A stretch of DNA of 64,000 nt, taken from sequence record MH494197.1; one strand, given 5' to 3'. Numbering within the stretch: the first letter of the stretch is position 1; the number at the start of each line of letters is the position of its first letter. This stretch comes from Escherichia phage CMSTMSU. The translations under genes were made by a program, and so were the position numbers. Positions 10,396 to 60,716 of the stretch are shown piece by piece. The notes under the pieces were generated by a model, which was given only the letters and a program-made list of their open reading frames with translations, did not search any database and had not been told where the DNA came from.

Positions 10396-10719
10396 AGAGC
10401 TACCAGTACTAAGATTTTTGATAATTGTTTGTTTCTATCCCGCAGATGTTGTTGTGTAAAATGCTCACTACAAGGGTATCAAGTGCATTGTTCAGCATAA
10501 GGTTACATCCAGTACTGTTATATTTTTTAGCTCAATTAGCCACGAACAATCCGCGAGAAATTTCCCGTACTCTAGTTCATTTAGCGTATTAATGTAGTAC
10601 TTAAGTGCATTTGTCATGTACAGTTCTCCTTATATTCCTTCTATAGTACATCAGTACTGAAAGGTTGTCAAGGGTTTTCTTTTTGGGGTAAATATGATAT
10701 AATGAATAAAGGAGGAAAT

Positions 10720-11866: not shown

Positions 11867-11893
11867 ATATAGTATAATGAATAAGGAGGAATT

Positions 11894-13017: not shown

Positions 13018-13087
13018 ATACTATGCCAGTACTCAAGTACTGGCTTTTATTTTATTAAATATAGTATAATGAATAAAGGAGGGAAAT

Positions 13088-14273: not shown

Positions 14274-14282
14274 GAGAAAATC

Positions 14283-15404: not shown

Positions 15405-15412
15405 TAATAGGT

Positions 15413-15440
15413 CAGTACTGAAATATGTACTGGTATTTTT
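15413..15440 (+). terminator. intrinsic terminator after F4
   Basis: CAGTAC-TGAAATAT-GTACTG hairpin followed by GTATTTTT. Confidence 0.55.
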
Positions 15441-15476
15441 GTAAATACTATATAATTTAATTACGGAGATTTTATT

Positions 15477-16653
15477 ATGTTACCTTTTGTTAGAATGTTT
15501 GATTATGGGAACGTCGTTGAGCGACCTGTGGGTACACGTTATACCTGTAGTGACTATAGTGCGACTTATAGTTTAATAAAGGATGGTGTGTTATATGTAT
15601 CTGGGATGAATAACTATTATCAGTTAGGTAATAACACTAACGTAACACGTTACAACGAGTGGTTAAAAGTTCCAGAGACTGATAGTGTTAAGTTTTGTAG
15701 TACTGGTTATAGTCAGACAATGTATATTACTAACAATGGGAGGATAATGATAGCTGGTGAAGATCCTACTTCCAGTGCGACGGCGGTAAGTGTTAAGGTA
15801 TGGACTGATATAACTTCTAGATTTAGTGCAGTTGATACAAAGAAGATTGTTTATATTTCAATAGAACGCTTTGGTGTAATGATGATCATGCAAGATGGTT
15901 CAGTATGGGCGTGTGGAGTTGATAATACTGGTTGGAGTGGGCAGGAAGTAAAACTGTTGGTTTCTTTACTTTCAGACAAATATACACCGGAAGTGCAGGA
16001 AGTGCAGTTGCTGGTACTGCTGGTACTGGTACTGCGAGAATTCTGTTAGCTAATGGAACAATCTTGTCCGCTGGTACTAATACATATCATCAATGTAATG
16101 CTAGTACTGATCCGGCTGTTCTAACATTCACTGAATCATTCCACGGGTTGATCCTTCATTGATATATCAAATCAAGATGTGTAATAACAACTGTATTATA
16201 TTTTGAGTGATAAGAGATATTACGGTACTGGCTGGGAAGTTTTGGTGCATTGGGTGATGGTGATATTACGGGTTCGAATAATAAATTCTATGCAGGTACA
16301 TTGTCAGTTGCTCCTAAAACATGCGTGCTTATATGTCGTATCTATGTAGTTCTTCTGGGGATTCTAGTATGTACATAGGCGATGATAATTTCATATACAC
16401 CTGCGGTTATCGTGGGAGGAACTTAATAAATGCCACTACAGATATTGGTACGTTCACGAAATGCATTCAAAGTGCACAAGGATACAAGAATGGACTTATA
16501 TATAGTGGGAATTATTGTGCTGTAGTTTTTGATCCAGATTTGGGTTCAGGAATGTCATATGCGGTTTCATCACCAAAATTGAATGCACCAGCACCACAGG
16601 CGAGTGTTCCAACATTGGGTATGAGTTCGTTACAAGCTATTATTTTACCATAA
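15477..16653 (+). CDS. leader-tagged RCC1-like repeat protein F5 (frame breaks)
   Basis: Track ORFs 15477..16049, 15932..16162, 16321..16653; N-terminus MLPFVRMFDYGN; variant promoter TATATAAT and GGAG. Confidence 0.65.
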
Positions 16654-16736
16654 CATTATACCAGTACTGAAATATGTGCTGGTATTTTTTTAAATACATT
16701 ATAATTATTATATGGAGATTTTAGTTATGTTACCTT

Positions 16737-17851
16737 TTGTAAGAATGTTTGATTATGGGAATACAGTGGCTGCTCCCACTGGTATAAAGGATTTCAAGCA
16801 AATGGAAGCCACTGTATGGCACTAACATATAGTGGTGAGATGTGGGCTTATGGTACAAGTACAAGTGGATCAATGGGAACCGGATTCACGGTGGGTGCTG
16901 CTGATAAGGGTTGGTACAAGTCTAACATTAGTAATGTTAAATCATTCAGTTCTAATATGCAGACTAGCACAGTGGCTTTGACAAATGATGATAGAGTGCT
17001 AGTTTGTGGCTCAACTAGATTTGACAAATTCAGTACTCCAGATATTGCATCATCTAACCTTGATTGGTTGGATGTTACTGATCATATTCCACAGGAAGTT
17101 ATTGATGCTGGGATGAAGCAAGTTATTAACCACGTATATTATGTTGCCATTTTACTGAAAACAATCTATTATATAGTGTGGCATTATCTTTGGGTAATAC
17201 TAGTACTATAATAGATAGAACATGGAGAAGAAATACATTTGGTGATATACAAGTTGAACGTGTTGTTTCGTTGACACAAACCCCAAGTGGTCCTTTGTGT
17301 ATAGTTCAAGATGCAGACGGATACCAGTATGGTATTGGATATAATGGTAATAAGATTATTGATAATACTTCCACTAATTCATATTCTGTATATACCAAAA
17401 TGGGTACACTTCCTTACAATGAATTTGCCATATCGAATAGCGGGAAATTCAGTTCAGCGGTATTATCAGATGGGAGAAGTGTTTATAGTGGTACATTTCC
17501 AAAGTCATTCAATAATAGTTTTGGTTCATTTTGAAAGTTGGTGCGGTATCAGATACTGTGTTTGGTTTAGATGCAAAAATATGCGTGGTCAATATGGTCA
17601 AAATCAATTACCAATTGCGTCGGCTGATAACAATGCAAGTAATGGCGTTGTGAACCTTCGTAATGTTCCAGCGGGAACACAAACGAAAGACATTCGATTT
17701 ATATGCGGAAATGATGTAAAGAACGTTTATATCATATACACAAATGAAGACGGCATTAGCTCATTTTATGGATTGGGACCAAACTTTGATCAAAATTCCT
17801 CAACATATGCACAATTCGTCAAAGTGGATTTGCGGGGCATTATCAAATTAA
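16737..17851 (+). CDS. leader-tagged RCC1-like repeat protein F6 (frame breaks, 3' end approximate)
   Basis: ATG at 16737 after terminator 16661..16690; N-terminus MLPFVRMFDYGN then early stop; body = track ORFs 16816..17211, 17178..17534 and 5' part of 17311..18324. Confidence 0.6.
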
Positions 17852-17861
17852 GGAGAGAAAT

Positions 17862-18960
17862 ATGTTACCTTTTGTTAGATTGTTTGATTATGGGAATATC
17901 ACACGGTCCTAAAAATATAATTAAAGTTGGTGCTTCTACACAGGGTCAATTCTTATTGACAGATTCACATGATTTATATTACATAGGTAGAAATCAAGGT
18001 GGTGAATCTGGAAATGGAAATACCAACACAGTATCCTCATGGATATTAGTAAGTACAGATGTTTCTAATTTTTTCGTGGGTGATCGTACACTTGTTATTA
18101 TTAAAAATGATAATACGATATGGTCATCAGGTCAAACGTACTGGTTCACATCTTCCACAACTACTTCTTACAGTACTGTATTAGTTGATAGAACCAGTTG
18201 GTTTACCAATGCCATACCAGTAAGTGAAATTGCTGATATAGTATGTTCGTATGGTTTAATATTTGTACTTAGCACTAGTTCAGTACTCTATGGTGCAGGG
18301 CTAATGGATATCGTGGTGCTTTAGGTATTGGTTCATCATCAATTTACACATTAACTCAATGTGCTACTAATGTGCGTAAAGTAATGACGAATGCAAATGA
18401 CAGTATGTATATTACATTAGATAATAAGTTATATAGTTCTGGGTGGAATGACCGTGGATTACATGGCACAGGAACAGAACACAAGTTAACATTTGGGGAC
18501 TGCGTAGTTCTGGTGTAATAGATGCAGCTATTGGTGGACATACACTCAATTACTATAATGGTACATCATATTTCACATGTGGTACAACTCCAAACTTTCT
18601 TAGTTCAGATTCAACTACATTCAAAGCAGTTCCTGTAAGTACTTTACCTAATAATTCACCTTTGTTTATGACAAATTCAGAGGCAACAAGCACGGCTACG
18701 CAAATTATATTAACTAGTGCATATCAGAAAGGTATTGGAAACCGTGGTTTGGGATTAAACAATTCTCAAACGGTGCTATCTATAGTGCTGCTAATTTACA
18801 ATTACCTGTAGAAGTTAGTGAGATTAGTGATGTTGCTTTTAGTGACGGATTAACATCATTATTAACCAAAGACGGAATGTATATAGTACTGGATCGTATT
18901 ACGCCATTCCGTGCAAGTGCAGATGTTGCAGTCTTTACTAAAATTGATTTACCAAAATAA
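17862..18960 (+). CDS. leader-tagged RCC1-like repeat protein F7 (frame breaks)
   Basis: AGGAGAGAAAT then ATG; N-terminus MLPFVRLFDYGN then stop; body = 3' part of track ORF 17311..18324 plus downstream frames ending ...FTKIDLPK. Confidence 0.6.
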
Positions 18961-18966
18961 CATAAT

Positions 18967-18993
18967 GCCAGTACTTGATACTGGCTTTTCTTT
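18967..18993 (+). terminator. intrinsic terminator after F7
   Basis: GCCAGTA-CTTGA-TACTGGC hairpin plus TTTTCTTTGG. Confidence 0.6.
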
Positions 18994-19000
18994 GGTTAAA

Positions 19001-19023
19001 TATAGTATAATGAATAAAGGAGG
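19001..19023 (+). promoter_or_regulatory. conserved array promoter/RBS module (-10 TATAAT at 19006-19011, AAGGAGG at 19017-19023)
   Basis: Block TTAAATATAGTATAATGAATAAAGGAGG nearly identical upstream of 12 of the 17 array genes; no convincing -35 hexamer. Confidence 0.5.
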
Positions 19024-19028
19024 GAATT

Positions 19029-20198
19029 ATGTTACCTTTTGCAAGAATGGTTAAGTACGGGAATATTGCACCTGTTCGCCCTGAAATAAAGAAATTGGAT
19101 GGTAGTCAATTACATGTCGGATTACTATATAGTACTGGTAATATGTATATGCGTGGTTCTGGTTCGAACTACAAGTTAGGTACAGGTGATGCTAGTGATG
19201 TATTAGATGGTTGGGTACATGTACCCTATGAAGTTGATGATTTTTGGGCGTGTGTGTCCGGTACATTAATAAAGACTAAAGACAATAAGTTATATTGTGC
19301 AGGACTATACATGGGTGGATATTTTGGTGCTAGTGGTTCATATGTTAACTGGACTGAAGTAACTTCATTATTTGTGGGTATTAACGTCTCACAAATAAAG
19401 AATATAGAATTTACATCAGCGAGTACTTCCGGTAGTACACTAATATTGATGTTAGATGGTAGTTTATATGGGTTCGGTATGAACAGTAGGTCGGAGTTAG
19501 GTGTTAATAACAAAGTCGTATCTCCTATTCTTATAGATACTGGGGTAAGTTCAATAGGAGCACATAAATTAGGTGGTTCATCGTTCCATTATATAAAAGA
19601 CGGTAAGTACTACAGATGTGGGACCGCGATTGGTAGTAATATAGGAAGTTCTTCTTTAACTACATTTACTGAATTGAGTATTGCTGATAATGTTATATCT
19701 ATGCAAATATTATTTGACAACGTACAGTTATTATGTTTTGGTAGTACTGGATATAGTATCTATATGGCTGGTTCTAATGATTATGGTGGAAGAGGTGTTG
19801 GTGGTAGTACTGTTTACACTACATTCAGGAAAATAGATCTTACTGGATTTGGTGTTGTTCCCAGTGAAATACTATTTGAAAATGCAGGGAATGGTTATGT
19901 TAATATATCAACTGATAGTACTGGCATATATACATGTGGTGGTGGTGCTGGTGTTAATGGTTTAGGTAGACCGAGTAATGTTATATCAAGTTCACAGTTG
20001 GGTTTGATTGAGTTCAGTACAGGATTATACCCAGCAAATATAAGTCGTGTATTTTCACAGAGTTCATCTTCTGTTATATATTGTATAGTTAATAATGAAT
20101 TGTACTGGGCTGGGAGTAATTCATATTTTACTGATCAAACTACAAATACTGGTACACAATTTTCATTTATTAAGATGAAGGATATGCCTTCTGCTTAG
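19029..20198 (+). CDS. leader-tagged RCC1-like repeat protein F8 (intact, 389 aa)
   Basis: Uninterrupted track ORF; N-terminus MLPFARMVKYGN; Gly/Ser/Thr/Asn-rich repeats. Confidence 0.85.
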   Translation: MLPFARMVKYGNIAPVRPEIKKLDGSQLHVGLLYSTGNMYMRGSGSNYKLGTGDASDVLDGWVHVPYEVDDFWACVSGTLIKTKDNKLYCAGLYMGGYFGASGSYVNWTEVTSLFVGINVSQIKNIEFTSASTSGSTLILMLDGSLYGFGMNSRSELGVNNKVVSPILIDTGVSSIGAHKLGGSSFHYIKDGKYYRCGTAIGSNIGSSSLTTFTELSIADNVISMQILFDNVQLLCFGSTGYSIYMAGSNDYGGRGVGGSTVYTTFRKIDLTGFGVVPSEILFENAGNGYVNISTDSTGIYTCGGGAGVNGLGRPSNVISSSQLGLIEFSTGLYPANISRVFSQSSSSVIYCIVNNELYWAGSNSYFTDQTTNTGTQFSFIKMKDMPSA

Positions 20199-20205
20199 AT
20201 TTTAT

Positions 20206-20235
20206 GCCAGTACTCTGTACTGGCATTTCTTTATT
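20206..20235 (+). terminator. intrinsic terminator after F8
   Basis: GCCAGTAC-TCT-GTACTGGC hairpin plus ATTTCTTTATT. Confidence 0.6.
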
Positions 20236-20265
20236 AAATATAGTATAATGAATAAAGGAGGAAAT

Positions 20266-21470
20266 ATGTTACCTTTTGTAAGAATGTTTGATTATGGGAA
20301 TGAAGCACCTGTGCCAGTTGGTATAAAGATGGTAAAAGTTTTACAGAATAATGTGTTTATTTTATTAGAAGACGGAAGATTATATGGCAGAGGGCATAAT
20401 TTTTACTATCAATTAGGTACTGGTAGTAGTTCTCCTACTATAGTTGAAGAGTGGGTTTTATGTTTAACTGATGTAAAGGAATTTTGGACTACTGGTGATA
20501 CACAAGGAATATTAGTACGTAAAAATGATGGCACATGGTGGAGTACTGGTACTCAAATCTATCGTGGTGTTAATACTACTTATCGTGTATGGACAGAAAT
20601 ACTTGGTATTTTTAATGATGTGAATGACACATATAGTAAAATAGTTATAGGAAGCGGCGTTACATTATTATTAACAATAGATAATAAATTATATAAGATG
20701 GGTGACAATAACAACGGTGAAGTTTTACTGGGGCTGTTGGTCAAAGAGTATCAGTACTGACATTGACACCAGAAGTTAATGTTAAAGATATTGGTGTAAC
20801 CGCGAATAATGCTTCATTTGTATTATACAATGATGGAACATTAAAGTACAGTGGGAATAAATCTAGTATTGGTTCGACTGGTACGACTAGTACAACTCCC
20901 ACATTGACTACTGTTACTACTGGAGTATTACAGATAAATTCGGAAAATGCATATAGTGCTAATTACGTATTAAAGAGTGATGGGCTATATGTATTCGGTT
21001 CACAAATAGATGGACAGTTGGGTGATGGCACTGATGGCACTATTAACAGTCTTAGAACAATCACAAAGATACCAGCTTCTAGTATTCCTAGTACTGCTAT
21101 TGATTACATAGGTGGTTCTAATTTTGAAGCACACGTTAGAGCAGGTGGTATATGGTATTTCGCTGGGCGTGGAAACGCTTCTGGAGATGGAATAACGAAC
21201 TCTAATGTTATTAAAACATGGCGTGCATGTACTAATATAACTGAACCAGTTCCATATGATAAAATGACACATGGTTATATGATAACATTCATGTTAAAAA
21301 CGGTGAATTATATGGTTCAGGGAATGGTGGTAGAACTGCTGGTATGGGTACAATTCCGTATGAAGAAGAAAATGCCGGAAATACAGGATTATTTAAAAAA
21401 TAGTTACACCGAGTTAAAATTAAAAGCCAGTACTCTGTACTGGCATTTCTTTGTATTAAATATAGTATAA
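20266..21470 (+). CDS. leader-tagged RCC1-like repeat protein F9 (frame break)
   Basis: Track ORF 20248..20760 trimmed to MLPFVRMFDYGN Met, plus track ORF 20763..21470. Confidence 0.65.
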
Positions 21471-21488
21471 TGAATAAAGGAGGGAATT

Positions 21489-22595
21489 ATGTTACCTTTT
21501 GCAAGAATGGTTAAGTACGGGAATATTGCACCAGTTCCGGTAGTTCCTACAATAAAAGATTTTAAGATTGGATTTTCACATGAAGTGTTATTGGACAGTG
21601 CAGGTGATGTATGGGGTATTGGATACAATACAGATGGGCAGTTGGCTTTTTGGATGCAAACACCAATTCATTAGGTGCGTGGTCTAAGATATATACTGAT
21701 GTTCGATTAATTGGAGTTACTGCTAGATATACAGTGGTAGTTACTAATAATAATAGAATACTATACGCAGGAAATAACTTAATTTCTAGTACTACCACTC
21801 TTGGGTGGACCGATATAACTACCAGTATGGGTCCGGTTGCGGTGGATAGCATCGATGCATTATATTGTACAGAGGGTATGATGCATATTAAAACTTCAGA
21901 TGGTTCTTTATATGCATATGGTCGTAACATGAACGCAAACAGTGGTGTTACTGGTGGTGTTATTAGTGTTGCAACTAAGGTTAATTTGCCTTCTGCTGTA
22001 AATGACATGCGATATACGTTTAGTTATGGTTCAGTACTATGTAGATTGGATACGACTTCTATATACGCATGGGGACGAAACATAAATGGTGAATTAGGTC
22101 AGGGTAATGCAACAGCCATTGTTACTCCAAAACTATTGTCTGGTTCTTCTATTGCAATGGGTACTTCGTATAATGCTACTGCAATTGTTTCTGGTTCTGC
22201 ATTGTTGCTTACATGTGGTGGACAAAACAGTGGGCAGTTAGGTAATGGTATTACAACTGATGGTAATGTATACACCTTTGGTGTCAGGACATACCAGCGA
22301 TCTTAATACAATAAGAAGTCCAGTGGATTGCAGTACAACGTACACCTCTGCATTTATGAGTCCAGATGGTATATATTACACTGGTGCTAACCGAAGTATG
22401 TTTGGTGGTATTAGTGGTGGTGCTACCGTTGGAATATATACTAAATGTAGTGATTTACCAATAACATATTCTAATATAATTCAGTGGAGTAGTGGTACTA
22501 TTGGTGGTGCTATATGTAGTAGTACAGAGTTATACCAATGTGGTATAGGTAGATACATTGCTGGTGATGGTGCGAGCACAACCGTATGGATTTAG
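21489..22595 (+). CDS. leader-tagged RCC1-like repeat protein F10 (frame breaks)
   Basis: Track ORFs 21489..21674, 21611..22306, 22245..22595; N-terminus MLPFARMVKYGN; break near a T-run. Confidence 0.65.
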
Positions 22596-22695
22596 GAAGA
22601 CACCATTACCTTGGGATACTTATTGACATTACGCCAGTACTTGATACTGGCTTTTCTTTTGATTAAATATAGTATAATGAATAAAGGAGGGAATT

Positions 22696-23884
22696 ATGTT
22701 ACCTTTTGTTAGAATGTTTGATTATGGGAATATCACACCTGAACCTCTTCAAATTAAGAAAATAATACCAACTGATACTGAGGTTGTTGTACTTTATACC
22801 GACGGTCAACTATACGCACGAGGCAGTAATAGTTATGGGAAGTTTGGTAGAGGAAATAATAATGCAGTAAGGTCGTGGACATTAATTAGAGAAAATGTCA
22901 AAGATTGCTGGATGACACAAGGAACTTTGTTAGTTCAAGATAAGGACTTAAATTATTTTTATTGTGGATATGGTAGTCATATTGGTTTAGAAACTAGTAC
23001 TACATCATTTTTAAGTTATAACCAATATATTGAAAATTTGTACACACAAAGTTCAGGTACTTCAATTAAACAGATGTATGCAGGTACTACTTGGTTTACT
23101 TTCTTAATGGATAATAATACAATATGGAGTACTGGTTGGAGTGGGGCTAGACAATTCGCTGATGGTACTGGTAGTACTCAACAAATAACAGATGGATCAT
23201 TTGTAAAAGCTGTCACGCCTAATGTTGATATTGCACGAATACAGTCAACAAATAGCTGTGTAATGTTTTATGATACACAAAATAATTTATATATTGGTGG
23301 TAGTACATCAGGTATAAGTACTACTGATACATGGACTCCATACAATCAATATACTTTATATCAGCCAAGTACAACATATACAAAAACATTACAATATGTT
23401 GTATGTACAATTGGTGCAGTCAGTGCTTTAGTGGAGAATCCAAGTACAGGAGCACGTCAGTTCCTAGTGGGTGGGAACGCCAATAATGGGGCATGGGGTA
23501 ATAACACTACGTCTAGTACAGCACGAGCAGTATTAGGAAATAATAGTACAACCTTACCACCGTACTTTGTATTCAATTCATACTGGATACCCAGCACAAT
23601 CTAGTATACTAGTTACGAGTTCTGGTGTATATGCAACAGGTTTAAATGCGAGTAGTTATGCTGGTTCATTGGGTGTTGGTTCTAATGTTACCATTGGTAA
23701 ATTTACTGCATGTCCATTGCCGTCAGAAATAACATATTCTATGTATGATAAAATAAAAATATATCGAGGGTCGTTACGTACTTTCCTAACTGCTGATATG
23801 AAAAATATATATTCAACCGGAACTTATGATGATGGTGGTCCTAGTACAAATAGATATGTACTGGATACACCTAGACAATTGTAA
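22696..23884 (+). CDS. leader-tagged RCC1-like repeat protein F11 (frame break)
   Basis: Track ORFs 22696..23604 and 23567..23884; N-terminus MLPFVRMFDYGN. Confidence 0.7.
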
Positions 23885-23948
23885 AAAAGCCAGTATCAAG
23901 TACTGGCTTTTCTTTGTTAAATATAGTATAATGAATAAAGGAGGAATT

Positions 23949-24683
23949 ATGTTACCTTTTGCTAGAATGGTTAAGTACGGGAATAAAATTGAATATAAGC
24001 CACATGGTGAACAATTAATCACGACAATAGGAACAACACAATTTACAGTTCCTGCTGGCGTTACCGAAATATCAGTATGTGTTATTTCGCCGGTGGTCAA
24101 CGTGGTGCTGGCGGCGGCTTATCGTGGCGTAATAATATTCCGGTTTCTGGTGGTGAGTACTTAAGTGTTTCTCTTACATCCCAACACTACTACAGCAGTT
24201 GAAAACGGTTTATATCGTGGAACTGAAAAACTATGTGTTAGCTTCACTGGTGCATATACGGTTGGTGGACTAGGTGGAAAAGCTGCTAACGCTATTAATG
24301 ATGGTGGTGGTAATGGTGGCAACACTGGTTTAAGTGGTGGTGCAGTCATTGGTGGTGGTGCTGGTGGCTACACTGGTAAAGGTGGTAACGGAAATGCAAT
24401 CACTGGTGAAAATGGTGCTGGGGGCGGCGGTGGTGGTGGTGCATTCTATAATACCTCGTTCATTGGTACGGGTGGTGGTACTGGTATCATTGTTCAAGGT
24501 GCTAATGGTATTGGTGGTAGCTACGATGGTTCATATAATGGTGGTGCTGGTAGTGGTGGTGCTGGTAATAGGTATGGTGGTGGTGGTAGTATATGGGATA
24601 ATTCTTCTTATACGGCGGCTGGTGGTGGTGCTGTGCGAATAATATGGGGACGTGGGAGATATTATCCTAATAATTCAGTCTAA
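23949..24683 (+). CDS. leader-tagged glycine-rich domain protein F12 (frame break)
   Basis: Track ORF 23826..24164 trimmed to MLPFARMVKYGN Met, plus track ORF 24165..24683 (GGGNGGNTGLSGG..., GAGGGGGGGAF); alternative frame across the break gives FAGGQRGAGGGLSWRN. Confidence 0.65.
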
Positions 24684-24752
24684 AATATAGGCCAGTACTT
24701 GATACTGGCTTTTCTTTGAATTAAATATAGTATAATGAATAAAGGAGGAAAT

Positions 24753-25907
24753 ATGTTACCTTTTGTTAGAATGTTTGATTACGGGAATATTGCACCTGAA
24801 GCTCCAAAGATAAAGAAAGTACTGTGCGGTCTTGATAATTTGTACGTCCTCTATGACGATGGCTCACTTTATGGTTGTGGGGTTAATTCGTATTTTCAGT
24901 TAAACGTTACAAATACAGCAACAAGAAATACTTGGATATTAATTTCAGAAGGTGTTACTGATGCATGGGCTGGGGCGTACAATATTCTTTATATCAAGGG
25001 TGAAGAATTCATAATGCATGGAGTTACCACACAATTAGGCACAGGAAATACTATGATTCCGTTGGGTGGTTTGAATGTTACTTCTTCATTTCCACATATA
25101 TCTAATATTAAAATGATATCAATCGGTGCAGATACAATGCACTACGTTGATGCTAGTGGTTCGATTGTTTATGGTAGAGGCATGAATGGTAACTATTCAC
25201 TCGGTGGTGGGTATTCCACGGCTCAGAGTACTTTTGTTTCAGTTATTAATACCGGAGCTAATACAGTCCTTGATATATTGGGTACACAGAATAACACATT
25301 AATATTAACATCAAATGGTGAACTTCTCGGTTGTGGGAGTAGTGAGTATGGCTCACTTGGCGTAAGTCAAGGACAGTATACTACACTAGTAAGCAGGTTA
25401 ACCAGTGTTAAACTGTTTGGTGGTAACAGTACTGGTACTCTTGCTTATTCAGCCAGCAATATATACAACGCAGGTTGGCAGTATGTTGGTCAACTTGGTA
25501 ACGGTATTACAACGAACACACTAGTATATCCATTTGCATTTAACTCCACTACTATTGATAGTAACATACATAAAATATCAAAATCAAGTACATCTTCACG
25601 TGTTAATATGTACGCAACAACCGAAGGAAAGATATATAGTACTGGTGAATTTGGTAGAAATGGTTCTGGTGGTAGTTTGAGTAGATTCACCAATACACTA
25701 ACTTTAGATAATTACAACCCAGAAAAATCAGCATTATACACATGTGCACATTTTAGTATAGTATTTGATGGTAATAATCAAATTTATGCTTGTGGTTCTT
25801 TTTGTATGTGCGTTCTATTACCACGAACTCATGGTCTGCAATTACAATGCCGAAATGATACTATAAAACTATGCCAGTACTTGATGCTGGCATTTCTTTT
25901 GTATTAA
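24753..25907 (+). CDS. leader-tagged RCC1-like repeat protein F13 (intact, ~384 aa)
   Basis: Track ORF 24735..25907 trimmed to MLPFVRMFDYGN Met; colinear paralogue of F1. Confidence 0.8.
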   Translation: MLPFVRMFDYGNIAPEAPKIKKVLCGLDNLYVLYDDGSLYGCGVNSYFQLNVTNTATRNTWILISEGVTDAWAGAYNILYIKGEEFIMHGVTTQLGTGNTMIPLGGLNVTSSFPHISNIKMISIGADTMHYVDASGSIVYGRGMNGNYSLGGGYSTAQSTFVSVINTGANTVLDILGTQNNTLILTSNGELLGCGSSEYGSLGVSQGQYTTLVSRLTSVKLFGGNSTGTLAYSASNIYNAGWQYVGQLGNGITTNTLVYPFAFNSTTIDSNIHKISKSSTSSRVNMYATTEGKIYSTGEFGRNGSGGSLSRFTNTLTLDNYNPEKSALYTCAHFSIVFDGNNQIYACGSFCMCVLLPRTHGLQLQCRNDTIKLCQYLMLAFLLY

Positions 25908-25936
25908 ATATAGTATAATGAATAAAGGAGGAAAAT

Positions 25937-27070
25937 ATGTTACCTTTTGCAAGAATGGTTAAGTACGGAAATAAAAGACCATCTAATAATATCAAAAGAT
26001 TTCATGTACAACCAATAACAGTGTTTTGGTGCTCACCGAAAGTGGAGATTTGTATGGTTTTGGATTCAATTCAGGTGGTGAACTTGGCACTGGTGCAAAA
26101 CTAGTGTTACTTCAGTTATTCAAATTGACACTGGAGTTGATGATGTATGGGGTGGTAGTCTATGTGCAATGTACAGAAAAGGCGATGAATTCTTTGGCAG
26201 CGGGACGGTTCTTATTATGGTTCAAGTGCTGTTAACTCAACCACATTTGTAAATGTAACACACATATTCCAAGATATAGATATTCTTAATATTAAGAAAA
26301 TTAAAATGACAACAGGTTTGTTTATATTAATGCAAAACGGCAACTTATATGGATGTGGGGTAAACACCAATTGTCAATTTGGTACTGGTGAGGCAGTGAA
26401 TTTTCGTTATCCTATAGCTACATTAACACAAACGGATGTTGTTGATTTTGATATTTTAGGAAACTCTAGTATAATATTAAAGACCGATGGGTACATGTAC
26501 AGTGCGGGTGATAATGGTCGTGGACAACTTGGTAGTTCTACTGCAACCACACTTCTGGTATATACACAAATTAGTAAATTTCCAAACGTAACCAATTTGG
26601 ATCTGTTCGGACACTCACAAGTTACTTCATTATTCAAAGATAGTGATGGTAAAACGTGGTTGAGTGGTAATAGTTATGGTATTGATTACCCAGTAGTAGC
26701 TACAACATTATTCAGTAAAGAAGCACCAGTACCTGAAGGTACATTTCGTTTTATCAACACAAGGGCAGGGTCAAATACACCAATAATATGTACACCCACT
26801 GGGTATTATGTTGCTGGTACTAACCCTTATGGTGCATATGGTATAGGTACGAATGTAACTCTGACAACATTCACAAGAATGGATTCTATGGATAGATACA
26901 TATCTGATTATAATAATGTTCCTGTTTTCGATGGATGTTTCTATGGGACATATTTTGCAGTTGGGGAACGTCTGTTTGGTGCAGGTAATGGTAATACTGG
27001 TAATGTTCCGGATATACTGGATCACAGCGTAACTATGTGGAAATTAATTATAAAAATAATTAAACCTTAA
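25937..27070 (+). CDS. leader-tagged RCC1-like repeat protein F14 (frame breaks)
   Basis: ATG at 25937 behind AAGGAGG; N-terminus MLPFARMVKYGN; body = track ORFs 26026..26235 and 26306..27070. Confidence 0.65.
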
Positions 27071-27138
27071 TACTATGCCAGTACTTGATACTGGCTTTTC
27101 TTTGGTTAAATATAGTATAAAGAATAAAGGAGGGAATT

Positions 27139-28308
27139 ATGTTACCTTTTGCTAGAATGGTTAAGTACGGGAATACTATACCCAAACCCGCTGGTGTGAA
27201 GAAAATTAGTACTTCCATTAATCACGTTGGGATGTTATTCGATAATGGAAATTTATATCTACGTGGGGTGGTGGTGAGTATAAGTTAGGAAATGACAGTA
27301 CTGGATTCGTACAGAATGGTTGGGTTAAGTGTCCATATAGCGTTGCTGATGTTTGGTGCTTCACTTACGCGACAATTATACTTACTACAAGTGGTGAATT
27401 ATACTTAGCTGGACAATTGGGTTATGTTGGTGTAGTTGCAGCGAGCGTACGGATGGACTAATATTACATCTAATTTATCCTCAATACCTGCACTTAGTAC
27501 TATACAAAACATAGCTTATACTGAGACTACAATTTACAATGGTGCTATATTAATTTTGTTAAGCAACGGGGACTTATATGGTATAGGTCGTAATGGTGGT
27601 GGTGTATTAGGCGTTTCTGGAATCCAATCAACTGCACTTAAGATTGACACAGGTGTTACTTTAATTGCTGGCACAGACCGTTCAGCGGCGTTACATTATG
27701 TGAAAAATGGTCAATACTACAGATGTGGGAATAATTCTCGCTACAACCTAGGAACAAGCTCTTCTGTTTTATCTACATTTACGGTAAGTACAGATATCAC
27801 AGGAACCGTACTGGGATTGCATGTACTACAAATGCGACTTCAGTACTGACATCATATAATGGTACTATTAGAGTGTATAGTGCTGGGACGAATACCGATT
27901 ATACGTTAGGTATTGGTTATGGAGATACCAGTATAATAATGAGTCCATTTAGTGCTACACCTCCAATTTATGGTATTGTACCAGATGCGGCATCACTGAA
28001 TAATTCTTGTATTAATTCTAATATGATTGCGATGACACAGGGTGGTAAATTGTATACATGTGGTAATGGTGTTGCTCTTGGTAGAGAAATCACTGCATCG
28101 ACACCTAGAACGGCGTACTATCCAGTACTATTTGAGGATTCAAATACTGCACTTGATGTTAATGCTTTTGCAGTGCAGGGGGTTCCGGTGTGTTATACGC
28201 ATTAGTGGGGGCAAATGAGGTTTACTGGTGTGGTAGTGGTTCTATGTTCCGGAACAGAGTGCAGGTACACAACAAGTTAAAATGAAGAAAATGATTTTAC
28301 CAGAATAG
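27139..28308 (+). CDS. leader-tagged RCC1-like repeat protein F15 (frame breaks)
   Basis: ATG at 27139; N-terminus MLPFARMVKYGN; body = track ORFs 27436..27849 and 27873..28205; upstream -10 is TATAAA. Confidence 0.6.
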
Positions 28309-28317
28309 GAGGAAAAT

Positions 28318-29449
28318 ATGTTACCTTTTGCAAGAATGGTTAAGTACGGGAATATAAAAGTAAAGAGTACTATCCAAAAAGTTATCCTTGGTGGTGGTGG
28401 TCAATGTGTGGTAACATTACTCAGTGATGGTAGAGTGTATGGACGTGGATACAATACAACATATGGGTTGGGTACTGGTACAACAACATTCGTAAGTGAT
28501 TGGGTATTAATGGGCGATAATATTGTTGATATCCATTCAAATGGTGTTACTGGCACATTCCTTATTACCAAAGAAAATAGAATTTTGTATTCTGGTTTTG
28601 CGACACCAATCAATGGCACAACATCACATTATACACGTTTCACTGATTTAACATCAACTGTATTTGCTGCGGTGGATGTTAGTAATATTAAAACAATTAC
28701 GGGAAATGGTAATGTTACAATGGTTCTTTTGAATGATGGTTCACTTTATGGGAGTGCAAATACAGGGTTATAGGTAATGGTAGTAACGTTGCATTATCAA
28801 CACAAACATATGTGACTAATGATGTGCGTGATGTGAAAACATATCCATCAATGAACACTATAACAAAAATAATAATCAAATATTGGCTAGTGGTATTTTA
28901 TACCAAGGCGTGAACGGTACAAATTCATCAATAAACACGTCTTCATATACATTACTGTACACATTACCGAGTTCTGATTGTTTTCAATTTGCATTTGATA
29001 CATATACATTTGGATATGTTGACCCTAGTACTAACACTTCTTATATAAGAGGTATACCAATAAATGGTTCATTAGGTAATGGCGTTACTAATAATACAGC
29101 AGTTACAACATGGGTTACTAAAGTTTGGAATACACCAATTGATAGTTCTATACCTAATAAATCATATACAACTAACCATGTCTCCTTGTTCAATGATGGA
29201 AACTTATGGACAACTGGTGCATCTAGTGTCGGCTATTCCAATGGTACAAATAGCACAACAGCTAATACATGGACCAGTTCATCTAATTTACCATTCAACA
29301 CTAATAACATAACAGACTATGCTTTTGGTGGTAGTATTACTGTGGTGGTAATCGACTATAGGACTATGTACATACTAGCTAACAACGCCATTGCTGGTAC
29401 TGCTACGACAACTTATAAATTTGAGCCATATAATTCTCCACCAGTTTAA
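28318..29449 (+). CDS. leader-tagged RCC1-like repeat protein F16 (frame break)
   Basis: Track ORFs 28318..28773 and 28883..29449; N-terminus MLPFARMVKYGN; starts 10 nt after F15 stop behind GGAGG. Confidence 0.65.
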
Positions 29450-29479
29450 TATAATGCCAGTACTATGTACTGGCTTTCT

Positions 29480-30128
29480 TTACATATTATATAATGTGAA
29501 TGCTGTCACTTTACCAGTTGTTGTTAGTTCATTATAAAGATACTCCAATATTCTCGCACACTCTAAGTATATCTCGATATCATCATGAATAAGTGAGTAC
29601 TGAAATAGCTGTTCTTCAGATAATTTGTATTGACTTCCTTTTAATGAATTGAGAATATCTTTCACATCATCAAGTACTGGGTAAAGTACGAAATCTTCAT
29701 CATATTTTGAAGCAATAAATTCAAATCCACCACCATCAGTACTAGATATACCAATCAGTACTTTATCAACCAAGTTAATGTTTATATAACGGTTGTGATT
29801 TGGGTGAATTGAAATCTCAAACATACGAGTACTGTTACAATCAACATCAATATACAAATATACATCGTTGAATTTATAAGTTAAGCAACCGTACTCAAGA
29901 AAATCAGAGCAAATAATTGATGAGTTTTTCTCGTCTCTGCGTAATGCATCTTGATATTCTTTTCACGCATAAGTAATTCGAACTTTGCACTAAACTTGCC
30001 ACCAGTAAGATAATTAGTATTAGGACGTTTGTAACTTGCAACTGGTCGGTGGGATGATGTAAAGTATTTTTTGTGAATCGTTTCTGTTTAGTGAAATATT
30101 CTTGATAGAACTTACTTCTTTTATTCAT
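29480..30128 (-). CDS. hypothetical protein encoded antisense within the array (frame break)
   Basis: Track ORFs 29904..30128 and 29480..29857 joined by a shifted frame (GGKFSAKFELLMREKNIKMHY...); sits between F16 and F17. Confidence 0.4.
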
Positions 30129-30205
30129 GAGTACCTCAATTAAATCGCTGTAAAATTGTACATTATAAAATGATTAAATAAAGTATAACACAAGGAGATT
30201 TTATC

Positions 30206-45239: not shown

Positions 45240-45354
45240 TTCATACTCCTTAAAGAGATAAATTACTTTAATATTTATACTTCATGTGCTGTTTATTTCT
45301 ACAGACACTTAAGATTATATCACGTAAGAAATGGTTGTCCCAAAGTCAAATCAG

Positions 45355-48395: not shown

Positions 48396-48427
48396 ATTAT
48401 AACAAAAAGGCTGACCGAAGTCAACCT
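48396..48427 (-). promoter_or_regulatory. composite hairpin terminator with embedded promoter (TTGACT-17-TATAAT)
   Basis: Minus-strand AGGTTGACTTCGGTCAGCCTTTTTGTTATAAT. Confidence 0.55.
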
Positions 48428-55428: not shown

Positions 55429-55964
55429 TTTATATTATTCCTTCTATGTTACAACCTATAATTATTTTTGTAACTTCGATAACTCTTACCAAATGGTATC
55501 CGTGAAAAAGTTAAAACCATACATTTGTGCTAATGCATCGGCTTCAGATTTTGCACGGATACATGATAGATATAGTTCTCGTATATCGTCATCCAACGAT
55601 GCTTGTTTCTCGTCATTGATAACAATAGAACGAATCTCAAAACGAACACCATAACTCATTTAGTTTGTCCAACAATTAGTTTCTCTCTAGTATTACTATT
55701 GTAACACCACATTAATTCTTCACCAACTGTTCTAAGTGAAACGCTGTTTACTTGTTCATAAGTACTGTCACGTACTGCAATGCATTGATTCATTGAATTC
55801 ATTGGGGTGATTTGTACACCAGATTGTGGTGAAAGAGCAATAATTAAAAGATTACTGAATTCATTAGATATTCCTTAGTGGTTAATCATCCATCTCTTCG
55901 AGATGTCTGTTCGCTTCTAATACTACGTATTCTACGCGAATGAATCATAACTGTCAAGGACTTT

Positions 55965-56490
55965 TAATATTGACGGGATTTGAGGAAGGATTTTTCTTCC
56001 CCACATGGAGGGAATTTGACGCTGATGGTATCAGAGCTATTGCATTGAAGATTACTCATAATGAGTGCGAAAGCGGGTCATCCTGTTTCTCTCTACTTCA
56101 GTTTCATATGACGGTCTACACTTTTAAACATAGTGTATCTTCATTAAGTATCTATGCAATCAAATACTTAATGTGAGTACTCAAATTTTGGACGCAACTT
56201 TCCTGTACAAAATTCGATAACTCTCCTTAGATAATTCGTAAGGTGTTATCCTTATATGTCTATCGAGGAACCATCAGCTATCCTAACGTGGTTCTTTATA
56301 CAGCCGCATTGCCGTGAGGGGTTCAAACTATGCCCACATCTAACGGGTTTCTTTTGCTGTTCGCTACAATGAAAAGCTCATCTATCCTTTACATTTTCAA
56401 GTGAAGTAGGGGAAGATTGTCAGTACCAGTACTGTCATTGTGATTGTACATAGATCATTGTATCACCATTAATAAATTTGTCCCATAAAA
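55965..56490 (-). ncRNA. candidate structured non-coding region
   Basis: ~500 bp with no minus-strand ORF over 30 codons between terminator 56488..56515 and a TTGACA-17-TAGAAT promoter at about 55935-55963; locally GC-richer; 9-bp stem CATTAAGTA..TACTTAATG. Confidence 0.25.
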
Positions 56491-56515
56491 AGGCTGACCG
56501 AAGTCAACCCTTTAA
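56488..56515 (-). terminator. hairpin terminator after the sigma factor gene
   Basis: Copy of the recurring GGGTTGAC-TTCG-GTCAGCC hairpin with T-run; no TATAAT here. Confidence 0.5.
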
Positions 56516-56517
56516 TC

Positions 56518-57480
56518 TTAAAAATCTTCGAACTCGTAACCTTGCATCTTCACCATCTTACGCAGTCGTTCCATTGCTTCAGAGTACTTACGGTGCAATG
56601 AAGAACGAGCAGTCATGACCTTACCCTTCTCATCTTCAAAACCACTCTCAATGATTTCTCGTAGCGTTTCTGGTTCAGAATAAGAACCAATACCATGTAC
56701 ACGTTCAATCAATTCACGGTCTTTGGCAGATAGGTTACTCATCATTTCTGCAATACTTTGTACCAGTGGGTACTGACAGTTTCTACGCCTAAGTTGTAAT
56801 CAGGTTCAACTGAAGTAACAATGTCAGATAATGTACTTTCTGAATCATTACTCATTTTCATATTCAATGCTACATAAGTGTTATTGTAAGTTAGACAATT
56901 CTTAACGTGTTGAATCTCAATACCAGTCTCTTTTGACACCATCTCAGGAGTTGGGTATTTACCATGTTTCCTTTGATACTCTTCTACACAACGTTTCACA
57001 TAAATGTTATTAACACTCATATAACGTGGGAAATGCACTAGATAATTAGCATCTGCACTTTCGTTATAGATTGTCATGTACACAGTTGTTGTTGCATATG
57101 TAATGAACTTAACATTTTGGTAGTGTCGAACGTATGAATTGCTCGCATTAAACCTTCAACACCATAAGAAATCTTATCTTCAAATGGGATGAAACATGTA
57201 CACTTACGTGCAACACTTACTACCATTGGATAGTTGTAGCGAACCAAAAGGTCAATATTCTTTTCAACGTCAATACCATCACGCACTGCTTGGATGAGCA
57301 TTTCATTCGTTATCCCTTTAGGGCGAGTTAAGCTGATACCTGTTTTGGTTTCTCAAACTTGTGACCGTCATGTTCTTCTTCTTCGACGGAATCAAGAGCC
57401 TCTAATACGTTGACTTCTTCACTAGCAAAACACTCATCCAGTACTTCTTCAGAAATTGCATTTAAATCAAGCTTTTTCAC
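56518..57480 (-). CDS. sigma-70 family sigma factor (frame breaks)
   Basis: Track ORFs 57074..57301, 56742..57083, 56518..56745 plus a GTG-initiated N-terminal piece behind GGAGAAG; region-2-like YGVEGLMRAIHTFD, region-4-like LSAKDRELIERVHGIG...TLREI...ARSSLHRKYSEAMERLRK. Confidence 0.6.
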
Positions 57481-57602
57481 TTACTTCTCCTAATGAATGA
57501 AATCAAAAACGGTATACATTAATATTATCATCGGTATAGATATCATGGTTATGAACATCCATGAAGGTATCAAATACCTTATCAAGAAGAGTATTATACT
57601 CT

Positions 57603-57860
57603 TCATGTACTGCTATCAAGCATGTATTCACCACCACTACCCATAAAGAATGTATAATCATTATGGAGATAATCAATCTTCTTGGTAAACTTACCCTTAT
57701 TAACGATTAAGTGAATGATGTAATCTTTTGACACAAGAACACAGTGACAACTCGCCTTGCGGTCTGGTATCACAGTCTCTTGTGAAATCAAGTATCTCAG
57801 TACTTTGTTAATTTCACTAACCTCACCGCAAGCACTAAACAGTCGGTCGTGTACATACAA
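57603..57860 (-). CDS. hypothetical protein (85 aa)
   Basis: Track ORF. Confidence 0.35.
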   Translation of the reverse strand: MYVHDRLFSACGEVSEINKVLRYLISQETVIPDRKASCHCVLVSKDYIIHLIVNKGKFTKKIDYLHNDYTFFMGSGGEYMLDSST

Positions 57861-58416
57861 TGTTTTTGTGAAACTACACCATAACTAAGTTTTGGTTTCA
57901 ACGGGAATAGGTTCAAAATGAACGTTGCTCAGTTGATGTCACTTTTGAATCAGTAAGTAATACTCCCAAGCGTTTATCAATATAAACAGTCGTCATATTA
58001 AACCTTATCTAAAATTTATCATAGATATAATATTCTTTATCGTTGAATACATTAATTCCGGATCGAAGCGTTGAAGTGTATTCATGTATAATGAACTTTT
58101 AAATAAAAATACAATGCAACAAATTCAGATATATGCATATTCTTTTTATTATTACATAAATTCTTTAGCATTTTAATGCTATCAAAATCATCTTTATCAT
58201 ATCTGTACTGGTAAAATTATATCTATTGAACTGACACTCATAGATACGAAGTGCCATTATGTCAATACATGCTTTAGATTTACAGTACTTATTCAATACG
58301 TCATAATCACCCACACATAATGCTACAAAGATTTTATGCAAGCGTAGCTTTACCTTCAATAGTATAATAACCAAAGAACTTACTGATTAAGTAATGTATA
58401 AATCTAAGCATTGGAT

Positions 58417-59000: not shown

Positions 59001-59054
59001 AAGTTCCTTACCATTTCCCAGTTTTGATGTAATAATTATATATCTCTCAATAAC

Positions 59055-59378
59055 TCACGTCAACTGTTTTCCGTACCTTTCTCTGCCATTTTTGTGATGT
59101 GCCATTTGAGTACTGATTTGTGTACCATAAAAATGTGAATGCAAAGACTGTAATGGCTGCTGAAGTAACACTATTAGATAAAGACCAAGTTGGATGTTAG
59201 TACCTAAAATAACAATAAATGGATATAACACAATCAATCTACTGTAAGGTTCGTCTCCAGTATCACGGATAAATCCAAGCCTTTCATGATCAGTATCCAT
59301 AGTGACAATTGGACAGAACATAAGTGCAGACATAACAGCAATACCAATTTGTGCTACATTGGCAATTGTAAACCACAA
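59055..59378 (-). CDS. small membrane protein (107 aa)
   Basis: Track ORF; hydrophobic. Confidence 0.4.
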   Translation of the reverse strand: MWFTIANVAQIGIAVMSALMFCPIVTMDTDHERLGFIRDTGDEPYSRLIVLYPFIVILGTNIQLGLYLIVLLQQPLQSLHSHFYGTQISTQMAHHKNGRERYGKQLT

Positions 59379-60351: not shown

Positions 60352-60404
60352 CGTTAAATCCTCTTGTCAGTTATTGCGGTACGAAGCTATTATACTGCCA
60401 TTTA

Positions 60405-60716
60405 CTATTTGGAGTCAACACATTTCAACAAGTATTTTTCTATGTATCTTATATGTGATGGTGGTAACAGTAAGTTTTCGTATCTAACCCTGTACACACT
60501 ACAATCGCCTAGATGAAAGTGACTGGTAGGATACAAGTCAGTTCTAATACTAACACGTTTACGATTATCAGTAAAGTTAATTAATGATTTTGGATTGTTA
60601 TTAGCATGAGTTCTTACAAAGTATTCAATTTCATTGAGTGCTTTTTCGTCGTATACATACTTGTCAAACACACCTAGTGTAAAGTACCTTGGATGGTACA
60701 TATATGAGAATAACAA
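60405..60716 (-). CDS. hypothetical protein (103 aa)
   Basis: Track ORF. Confidence 0.45.
   Translation of the reverse strand: MLFSYMYHPRYFTLGVFDKYVYDEKALNEIEYFVRTHANNNPKSLINFTDNRKRVSIRTDLYPTSHFHLGDCSVYRVRYENLLLPPSHIRYIEKYLLKCVDSK

What the first reader, a model, noticed from the sequence alone, without database searches (positions are those of the whole stretch)
56518..57480. Phage-encoded sigma-70 family factor with regions 2 and 4
The reassembled ~300-aa protein has a region-2-like core and a region-4-like helix-turn-helix. A phage sigma implies a private promoter class, for which the array module is the obvious candidate.
Basis: partly seen in the sequence, partly recalled or inferred. 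Interest (0 to 1): 0.55.

Follow-up and report, generated by a model that had tools for sequence, protein, structure and literature searches.

The report
Known jumbo-phage sigma factor gene
This is the already-annotated sigma-70-family transcription factor of 121Q/PBECO4-type giant E. coli phages, broken in this copy only by sequencing errors, and its likely targets are the phage's DNA-replication ("middle") promoters, not the repeated gene array.

Summary
Window 56518-57480 (minus strand) encodes a 321-aa sigma-70-family protein once three 1-nt homopolymer deletions are repaired. These deletions are assembly errors: the window carries 256 single-base deletions against 22 insertions relative to phage fEgEco12, and the gene is intact in every relative examined. 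Pfam finds regions 2 and 3. Region 4 is divergent but supported by alignments and an AlphaFold/Foldseek match to sigmaS/sigmaA.

[quoted passage not shown] It is therefore already known.

The proposed link to the array is not supported:
- The array (RCC1-like virion-protein paralogs) uses a T4-late-like TAAATA promoter shared with about 40 other structural genes.
- The phage has a separate gp55-like late sigma outside the window.

A better candidate is a promoter class G(G/A)GACA-N16-TATAAT.
- It has 17 sites against 0.3 expected.
- It lies before replication genes and before the gp55-like sigma gene.
- Its -35 box changes between phage genera in step with this sigma's region 4.2 helix.

That assignment is inference, not shown.

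The parts
56518..57480 (-). Sigma-70-family factor gene (321 aa after repair); ortholog of fEgEco12 g519, 121Q gp167 and phAPEC6 gp066c
57343..57346 (-). Frameshift 1: A4 run (A5 in relatives); assembly error
57115..57118 (-). Frameshift 2: A4 run (A5 in relatives); assembly error
56768..56770 (-). Frameshift 3: C3 run (C4 in relatives); assembly error
57332..57480 (-). Acidic, poorly ordered N-terminal region (aa 1-50; pLDDT below 50). Its resemblance to region 1.1 is only by composition.
57045..57307 (-). Sigma2 domain (aa about 59-146). The core-binding 2.2 motif EGLMRAI..FD and the KF.TYAT motif are kept. W433/W434, Q437 and T440 of sigma70 are replaced by T, T, M and Y.
56805..57026 (-). 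Sigma3 domain (aa about 153-226)
56545..56766 (-). Sigma4 domain (aa about 239-313) with an 8-residue insertion in the HTH turn; recognition helix ARSSLHRKYSEAMERLRK
56486..56513 (-). Intrinsic terminator immediately after the stop codon (GGGUUGAC-UUCG-GUCAGCC plus U run; -14 kcal/mol, z -4.2); member of a recurring family
   Evidence: (family D8)
56457..56484 (-). Middle-class promoter-like site GGGACA-N16-TACAAT with TGn, directly after the sigma terminator, facing an unannotated stretch of about 650 nt
59035..59063 (-). Host-sigma70-type promoter-like site (TTGACG-17-TATAAT) upstream of the gene run that ends in the sigma gene
60389..60418 (-). Host-sigma70-type promoter-like site (TTGACT-18-TATAAT) further upstream in the same run
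57503..58000 (-). Gene immediately upstream of the sigma gene on the same strand (fEgEco12 g518, weak HslV-like; fragmented here by the same errors). Probably co-transcribed.
45314..45341 (-). Second middle-class site in the window (GGGACA-N13-TGATATAAT), before the ortholog of fEgEco12 g551
10689..30180 (+). Array of about 17 RCC1-like paralogs. Each is preceded by a terminator hairpin and the late-type TAAATA element (14 exact copies found here).

Best explanation
This is a functional phage sigma factor gene with sigma2-sigma3-sigma4 architecture, and its frameshifts are assembly errors. It sits in a minus-strand run of small genes served by host-sigma70-type promoters, so it is made early by unmodified host RNA polymerase. 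The protein then binds host core polymerase through its conserved region 2.2 and sigma4. It probably redirects the polymerase to the phage's 'middle' promoters, G(G/A)GACA-N13-TG(A/C)TATAAT. These lie before the clamp, gp32, primase, exonuclease, topoisomerase and helicase genes, and before the gene for the separate gp55-like late sigma. That late sigma in turn reads the TAAATA late promoters, which include the array promoters. The result would be a three-tier cascade (host sigma70, then this sigma, then gp55-like sigma) doing the job that MotA/AsiA does in T4. Shown here: identity as a sigma-70-family protein, intactness in relatives, the existence and distribution of three promoter-like classes, and -35/sigma4.2 concordance across genera. 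Inferred: early timing, core binding, and which class this sigma reads.
For: Sigma identity. Frameshifts as artefacts. Early context: sigma70-type sites at 59035-59063 and 60389-60418, with no M or L site between them and the gene. The CBB paper places the ortholog in the predicted early region (PMC5259590). The sigma is not among phAPEC6 virion proteins in the part of Table 1 that one search returned. Middle class: 17 sites with strict 16-nt spacing, all on the coding strand, against 0.33 expected; controls with other spacings or other first two bases give 0-1. The downstream genes are replication genes and g336. Sites and -35 boxes are kept in phAPEC6 while the spacers diverge. Concordance between -35 box and sigma4.2 helix covers five genomes and three types. 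Asteriusvirus (two clades) has GGGACA with (A/S)RSS(L/I)HRKYSEAM. RaK2 has TGAAC(A/G) with VRGTLHYKFSTAL. CBB and fHe-Yen9-04 have ATG(A/G)AAC(G/A) with SKATLSRRYN. These phages infect Enterobacterales, whose sigma70 region 4.2 is essentially invariant (established knowledge), so a genus-specific -35 box implies a phage-encoded reader. No AsiA homolog was found in fEgEco12 (best tblastn E 2.3). The late class is accounted for by a gp55-like sigma.
Against: No transcript or binding data exist for any member. TGnTATAAT is the optimum for host sigma70, and extended -10 promoters need no -35. The phage sigma lacks sigma70's W433/W434, Q437/T440 and H455/E458 equivalents. Its region 2.4 differs between genera while the -10 box stays TATAAT. 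The concordance amounts to only about two independent changes on a tree. A separate co-evolving MotA-like -35 binder is not excluded.
Confidence: 0.5

Rival explanations
1. One reading: this sigma reads the promoters of the paralog array, either as a private class or as the whole late class.
For: Most array promoters carry a perfect TATAAT 3 nt after TAAATA and no sigma70-type -35. The sigma gene and the array lie in the same window.
Against: The invariant element is TAAATA, not TATAAT. Array members g580, g591 and g592 have TATAAC, TTATAAT or TATATAAT, and other late genes have no TATAAT. TAAATA precedes about 40 non-array structural genes and is avoided elsewhere (185 occurrences against 593 expected). 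It resembles the T4 late promoter TATAAATA, which is read by gp55, and a gp55-like sigma is encoded. The array proteins are virion components. Late promoters have no fixed upstream box for the retained sigma4 domain to read.
Confidence: 0.1
2. The sigma is functional, but the GGGACA class is read by host sigma70 through its extended -10, with the upstream box bound by another phage protein or by none. This sigma would then do something else, such as competing with sigma70/sigmaS for core to shut off the host, or reading a promoter class not detected here.
For: TGnTATAAT fits sigma70. The phage sigma lacks the sigma70 residues for TG and -12 recognition. The -10 box is constant while region 2.4 varies between genera. 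The sigma evolves unusually fast: 59.6% identity between Asteriusvirus clades, where neighbouring genes are 75-94% identical and gp32 is 84%. That pattern would suit a conflict-driven role.
Against: No other conserved intergenic motif emerged after the three classes were removed, though the check was a visual inspection of 87 remaining gaps. The -35 box type matches the sigma4.2 helix type in 5 of 5 genomes. No AsiA homolog was found.
Confidence: 0.3
3. In this isolate the gene is a true pseudogene, or is expressed through programmed frameshifts.
For: There are three frame changes, all in the same direction.
Against: All three lie in homopolymers. Window-wide, deletions outnumber insertions by about 12:1, at roughly 5 indels per kb, and they break most genes. 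Relatives are intact. No slippery heptamer or downstream structure was sought or noticed.
Confidence: 0.04

Closest known systems
Annotated 'RNA polymerase sigma factor' of Asteriusvirus and related Rak2-like jumbo phages (fEgEco12 g519, BF17, 121Q gp167, phAPEC6 gp066c, RaK2 ORF244, CBB_513, GAP32)
   Same: Orthologous gene, 98-99% identical to BF17 and fEgEco12. Synteny is conserved (the gene follows the g516-g518 homologs). The domain set is the same. [quoted passage not shown]
   Different: The only difference is the error-induced frameshifts in this copy. In none of these phages has the target promoter been determined.
Bacillus phage SPO1 gp28 (middle-gene sigma) and the SPO1 sigma cascade
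   Same: Working analogy: an early-made phage sigma replaces the host primary sigma on host core and turns on middle genes, and a further phage sigma drives late genes (established knowledge; PMC13401047 abstract).
   Different: No detectable close sequence relationship was tested. SPO1 middle promoters have both hexamers changed, whereas here the candidate class keeps TATAAT and changes only the -35 box.
T4 MotA/AsiA sigma appropriation (middle) and gp55/gp33/gp45 (late)
   Same: The temporal logic is the same. The late promoter motif TAAATA resembles T4 TATAAATA, and a gp55-like sigma is present. Candidate middle promoters keep a sigma70-like extended -10 with a replaced -35 region, as T4 middle promoters do.
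   Different: No AsiA homolog was found. The replaced -35 box sits at the canonical 16-17 nt spacing, as expected for a sigma4 domain, rather than at the -30 position of a MotA box. The protein here is a full sigma2-3-4 factor, unlike gp55.
E. coli RpoS / RpoD C-terminal part (group 1-2 sigmas)
   Same: These are the best structural and sequence matches over sigma2 to sigma4.
   Different: Identity is about 25%. NCBIfam scores (96 and 82 bits) are far below the family cut-offs (354 and 379). Region 1.2 was not detected. W433/W434, Q437, T440, H455 and E458 are replaced. There is an 8-residue insertion in the sigma4 HTH turn.
Coliphage phiEco32 gp36
   Same: An E. coli phage-encoded sigma-70-family factor that works with host core on middle and late phage promoters (from my own knowledge; cited as Pavlova 2012 in PMC7318152).
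   Different: It was not compared here. As I recall, it recognises a single -10-like element, and the phage is small and unrelated.

Membership tests
Sigma-70 family (Pfam clan of Sigma70_r2/r3/r4) | Region 2 (core binding, -10 recognition) | tested here: met
   PF04542 scores 37.1 bits against a cut-off of 24, aa 79-141. The EGLMRAI..FD...KF.TYAT motif is conserved across 19 homologs.
Sigma-70 family | Region 3 | tested here: met
   PF04539 scores 44.9 bits against a cut-off of 25.3, aa 162-224.
Sigma-70 family | Region 4 helix-turn-helix (-35 recognition, beta-flap binding) | tested here: met
   The Pfam r4 model gives no hit, and the isolated C-terminus reaches only E 0.055 against RpoS sigma4. 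Full-length alignments to SigB and RpoS extend to aa 308-319. The AlphaFold sigma4 (pLDDT 73-89) lies within Foldseek alignments of 264/277 columns to sigmaS. Met by structure and context, with a divergent sequence and an 8-residue insertion.
Sigma-70 family | Binds bacterial core RNA polymerase and confers promoter-specific initiation | not testable with these tools
   This needs co-purification or in vitro transcription. No such data were found in the literature library.
Group 1/2 sigmas (RpoD/RpoS equivalogs) | Score above the NCBIfam equivalog cut-offs; region 1.2; conserved -10/-12 and TG-reading residues (W433, W434, Q437, T440, H455, E458) | tested here: not met
   RpoD_Cterm scores 95.7 bits against a cut-off of 354, and RpoS 82 against 379. 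The residues are replaced by T, T, M, Y, Y and V (sigma70 numbering from my own knowledge).
T4 gp55-type late sigma | Minimal sigma2-only protein in PHROG 234/12791 | tested here: not met
   The query falls in PHROG 351 only. The gp55-like protein is a different gene, fEgEco12 g336, outside the window.
Orthologous group of Rak2-like/Asteriusvirus sigma factors | High identity, full-length alignment and conserved gene neighbourhood | tested here: met
   99.1% to BF17 and 98.8% to fEgEco12, 59% to the 121Q clade, 33-39% to RaK2, CBB and Yen9-04, all at 98-100% coverage. Same neighbours.

The most novel reading that the evidence does not exclude
This fast-evolving sigma may be the missing middle-gene switch of Rak2-like and Asteriusvirus jumbo phages. 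On this reading its region 4.2 helix reads a genus-specific -35 box: GGGACA in Asteriusvirus, TGAACA in RaK2, and TGAAACG in CBB and Yen9-04. That box is placed 16-17 nt upstream of an unchanged TGnTATAAT. The sigma would switch on replication genes and the gp55-like late sigma, giving a three-sigma cascade that replaces T4's MotA/AsiA. The -35 box and the sigma would co-diversify between phage genera that share hosts with identical sigma70.
Probability: 0.45. Interest if true: 0.5.

Novelty: already known. Interest (0 to 1): 0.28.

Why it matters
As a gene call it adds nothing. The same protein is annotated in dozens of GenBank records and is discussed as a marker of group 2 jumbo phages.

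The open question is which promoters it reads, since no member has been tested. The analysis gives concrete, cheap targets for testing:
- the tandem gp32 promoters;
- the clamp and primase promoters;
- three natural -35 variants paired with three natural sigma4.2 helices.

If the assignment holds, these phages would offer a set of orthogonal sigma/-35 pairs that work on E. coli core polymerase. They would also be an example of promoter and sigma co-diversification within one phage lineage.

There is also a practical warning. This window is an error-rich assembly, so apparent pseudogenes and 'reassembled' proteins elsewhere in it should be read the same way.

Tried and rejected
- **Pfam region 4 model:** no hit. 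Replaced by alignments and a structure search.
- **Pseudogene or programmed frameshift:** rejected on the window-wide deletion bias and intact relatives.
- **tRNA or tandem-repeat 'array':** none found. The array is a set of paralogous genes.
- **A fourth promoter class for this sigma:** 8-mer enrichment and inspection of 87 intergenic gaps lacking the three classes showed nothing convincing. Many of those gaps were artefacts of my crude gene caller or held the -10 half of M-class sites. This was not a rigorous motif search.
- **Annotated 'transcriptional regulator', 'sigma 54' and 'HdfR' genes of fEgEco12 as MotA/gp33-like candidates:** PHROG matches are uninformative.
- **AsiA:** none in fEgEco12. 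MotA and gp33 were not searched because I had no reliable query sequence.
- **Rfam on the unannotated 650 nt downstream of the sigma gene:** no hit.
- **Literature search for experiments on this sigma:** none found.
- **PA5oct as a fourth lineage:** not pursued, because it would have needed the whole genome.

Full report
**What is at the coordinates**

On the minus strand, 57480 to 56518 holds four ORF fragments of 50, 75, 113 and 75 aa in frames 0, 1, 2 and 0. The surrounding 3 kb is 98% identical to Escherichia phage fEgEco12 and about 82-84% identical to 121Q, PBECO4 and slurp01. These are E. coli jumbo phages of about 350-380 kb in the genus Asteriusvirus, and a single CDS annotated 'RNA polymerase sigma factor' lies at this position in them.

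Alignment to fEgEco12 shows that the window differs by three single-base deletions, each in a homopolymer:
- A5 to A4 at 57343-57346
- A5 to A4 at 57115-57118
- C4 to C3 at 56768-56770

There is also one in-frame GAA loss. Ecwhy_1 and EC.P1 are intact at all three sites.

**The frameshifts are artefacts**

Over 50 kb of window aligned to fEgEco12 there are 378 indel events. Of these, 256 are single-base deletions in the window and 22 are single-base insertions, and nearly half fall in runs of 4 or more. That is about five indels per kb. It explains why the whole window lacks long ORFs and predicts about five hits in a 966-nt gene. I therefore treat the gene as intact in the real phage.

**The protein**

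The repaired 321-aa product passes the Pfam thresholds for Sigma70_r2 (aa 79-141) and Sigma70_r3 (aa 162-224). It matches PHROG 351 'RNA polymerase sigma factor' at E 3e-47. It aligns to RpoD, RpoS and SigB models and to 67 solved sigma chains, but far below the equivalog cut-offs.

Region 4 is divergent:
- The Pfam r4 model gives no hit.
- The isolated C-terminus matches RpoS sigma4 only at E 0.055, with an 8-residue insertion in the HTH turn.
- Full-length alignments do run through it.
- An AlphaFold model built on 19 homologs has confident sigma2, sigma3 and sigma4 blocks (pLDDT 73-89). Foldseek returns only sigmaS and sigmaA chains at the top, over 250-270 aligned columns, at E 6e-11.

Region 2.2 and the KF.TYAT core are conserved. 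The sigma70 residues W433, W434, Q437, T440, H455 and E458 (numbering from my own knowledge) are replaced by T, T, M, Y, Y and V. It is therefore a sigma2-3-4 factor, not an RpoD or RpoS ortholog and not a gp55-type minimal sigma.

**What is already known**

- The gene is annotated as a sigma factor in most related records. Identity is 99% to BF17, 59% to the 121Q clade, and 33-39% to RaK2, GAP32, CBB and fHe-Yen9-04.
- Iyer et al. list phage sigma factors, both a minimal type and an RpoD-like type, as the defining transcription feature of group 2 jumbo phages (PMC7824862).
- The CBB paper places the ortholog in the predicted early region. It also describes a second, 'divergent RpoD-like' promoter class (TGAAACG plus TATA) before DNA-synthesis genes, an ATAAATA late motif and a gp55-like sigma (PMC5259590).
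- I found no experimental work on the target promoters of this protein.

**The 'array module'**

The array is a set of about 17 tandem paralogs at 10.7-30.3 kb on the plus strand, each starting MLPFVRMFDYGN. Each is preceded by a hairpin and TTAAATATAGTATAATGAATAAAGGAGG. In fEgEco12 these genes are g580-g595, annotated as RCC1-like 'chromosome/DNA condensation' proteins. In phAPEC6 at least eight members of this RCC1-like 'DNA condensation protein' family were detected in virions by mass spectrometry; I did not align them to the window's array (PMC7247149).

**Genome-wide promoter classes**

I assembled the full fEgEco12 genome from eight fetches and called genes crudely, obtaining 657 against 670 annotated. 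Three promoter-like classes emerge.

*E class.*
- Consensus TTGACA or TTGCAA, then N16, then TATAAT, followed by GTTTTACATC.
- 30 sites, all on the coding strand, against about 1 expected.
- Dense in the terminal repeat and in the 290-327 kb early-type region.

*M class.*
- Consensus G(G/A)GACA-N13-TG(A/C)TATAAT.
- 17 sites with strict 16-nt spacing, all on the coding strand, against 0.33 expected.
- Controls with spacings of 14, 15, 17 or 18 nt, or with other first two bases, give 0-1 sites.
- Located before the clamp, gp32 (in tandem), primase, exonuclease, topoisomerase II and helicase genes, and before g336.

*L class.*
- The hexamer TAAATA, present 185 times against 593 expected.
- 56 copies are intergenic, in sense orientation and 15-75 nt before a start codon.
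- Located before the capsid, sheath, tube, baseplate, fibre and portal-region genes, and before every array gene.

Within the array the invariant part is TAAATA. The following TATAAT degrades to TATAAC or TATATAAT in divergent members and is absent from most other late promoters. The array is therefore an ordinary member of the late class.

fEgEco12 g336 lies next to the gp46/47-like genes and is a gp55-like late sigma (PHROG 12791 at E 1e-152; PHROG 234 at E 1.5e-16). By the T4 precedent (TATAAATA read by gp55; established knowledge) it is the natural reader of the late class.

**Context of the sigma gene in the window**

- Upstream on the same strand are sigma70-type sites at 59035-59063 and 60389-60418. 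No M or L site lies in between.
- Immediately after the stop codon is a UUCG-loop terminator.
- An M-class site follows at 56457-56484.
- The sigma does not appear in the phAPEC6 virion list, in the part of Table 1 that one search returned.

This fits early synthesis by host polymerase.

**Which class does it read?**

A factor that keeps sigma4 should use a -35 box at fixed spacing. Only the E and M classes have one, and the E class must fire before any phage protein exists.

I compared orthologous replication promoters in other genera:

| Phage group | Sigma identity to this protein | Promoter at replication genes | Sigma4.2 helix |
|---|---|---|---|
| Asteriusvirus, fEgEco12 clade | 98-99% | G(G/A)GACA-N13-TG(A/C)TATAAT | ARSSLHRKYSEAM |
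| Asteriusvirus, phAPEC6 clade | 59% | GGGACA kept, spacers diverged | SRSSIHRKYSEAM |
| RaK2 (its gp32 is 81% identical) | 39% | TGAAC(A/G)-N16/17-TATAAT | VRGTLHYKFSTAL |
| CBB and Yersinia phage fHe-Yen9-04 | 33-37% | ATG(A/G)AAC(G/A)-N13-TGnTATAAT | SKATLSRRYN |

Box type and helix type agree in all five genomes. The hosts are all Enterobacterales, whose sigma70 region 4.2 is essentially invariant (established knowledge), so the genus-specific box points to a phage-encoded reader. fEgEco12 has no AsiA homolog.

The sigma is also the most diverged gene in its neighbourhood between the two Asteriusvirus clades: 59.6% identity, where neighbouring genes are 75-94% identical.

**Reasons for caution**

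- The concordance rests on about two independent evolutionary changes.
- TGnTATAAT is what host sigma70 likes best.
- The phage protein lacks sigma70's TG-reading and -12-reading residues.
- Its region 2.4 varies between genera while the -10 box does not.
- A separate -35-binding activator is not excluded.

I therefore give the middle-promoter assignment roughly even odds, and about 0.1 to the array or late-class reading.

**Verdict**

The sigma identification is correct but already known. The proposed link to the array is not supported. The useful new lead is the M-class promoter set and its co-variation with sigma4.2, which makes this sigma's specificity directly testable.

Noticed in passing
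whole window, e.g. 1-64000: Relative to fEgEco12 the window carries 256 single-base deletions against 22 insertions in 50 kb aligned, many of them in homopolymers. This is an uncorrected long-read-type error profile that fragments most genes. Any 'pseudogene' or 'reassembled protein' elsewhere in the window should be read with this in mind.
   Followed up: yes
window 55810-56455 (minus strand); fEgEco12 307084-307710 and 110817-111049: About 650 nt between the sigma terminator and the next gene has no ORF or annotation. It is preceded by an M-class promoter. It contains an element (ACCTTACGAATTATCTAAGGAGAG ... AAGTTGCGTCCAAAATTTGAG) that recurs at a second locus in the genome. Both copies lie near HNH endonuclease genes. 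There is no Rfam match. It could be a non-coding RNA or a remnant of a mobile element.
   Followed up: partly
fEgEco12 whole genome; in the window e.g. 307-341, 1059-1093, 11817-11854: AGTACT and CAGTACTG are extremely frequent: CAGTACTG gives 522 counts over both strands, about 261 sites, in 375 kb. They sit in promoter spacers, terminator loops and coding sequence. The cause is unknown.
   Followed up: no
fEgEco12 whole genome; 33 copies in the window: The hexamer TAAATA is 3.2-fold under-represented (185 against 593 expected) and concentrated just upstream of structural genes. This is the signature of a promoter element that is selected against elsewhere.
   Followed up: yes
window 34655-34683, 37339-37367, 41790-41818, 44819-44848, 48396-48424 (minus strand): The recurring UUCG-loop terminator hairpin GGGTTGAC-TTCG-GTCAGCCC doubles as the TTGACT -35 of a TATAAT promoter placed 18 nt downstream. 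This gives compact terminator-promoter units between early-type genes.
   Followed up: partly
window 56518-57480 compared with phAPEC6 gp066c: The sigma is a divergence hot spot. It is 59.6% identical between the two Asteriusvirus clades, while flanking genes are 75-94% identical and gp32 is 84%. The DNA-reading helix of sigma4.2 is nevertheless conserved.
   Followed up: partly
window 1-5200 (minus strand) and fEgEco12 terminal repeat 1-21 kb: There is a dense series of near-identical strong sigma70-type promoters (AAAAAGTACTTGCAA-N16-TATAAT-GTTTTACATC). Each is followed by a GGGGAG...CTCCCC hairpin and a very small ORF. This looks like an immediate-early module. This part of the window is only about 90% identical to fEgEco12.
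   Followed up: no
window 54636-55428 (minus strand): An HNH endonuclease gene (fEgEco12 g522) is split here into several ORFs by the same indel errors.
   Followed up: no
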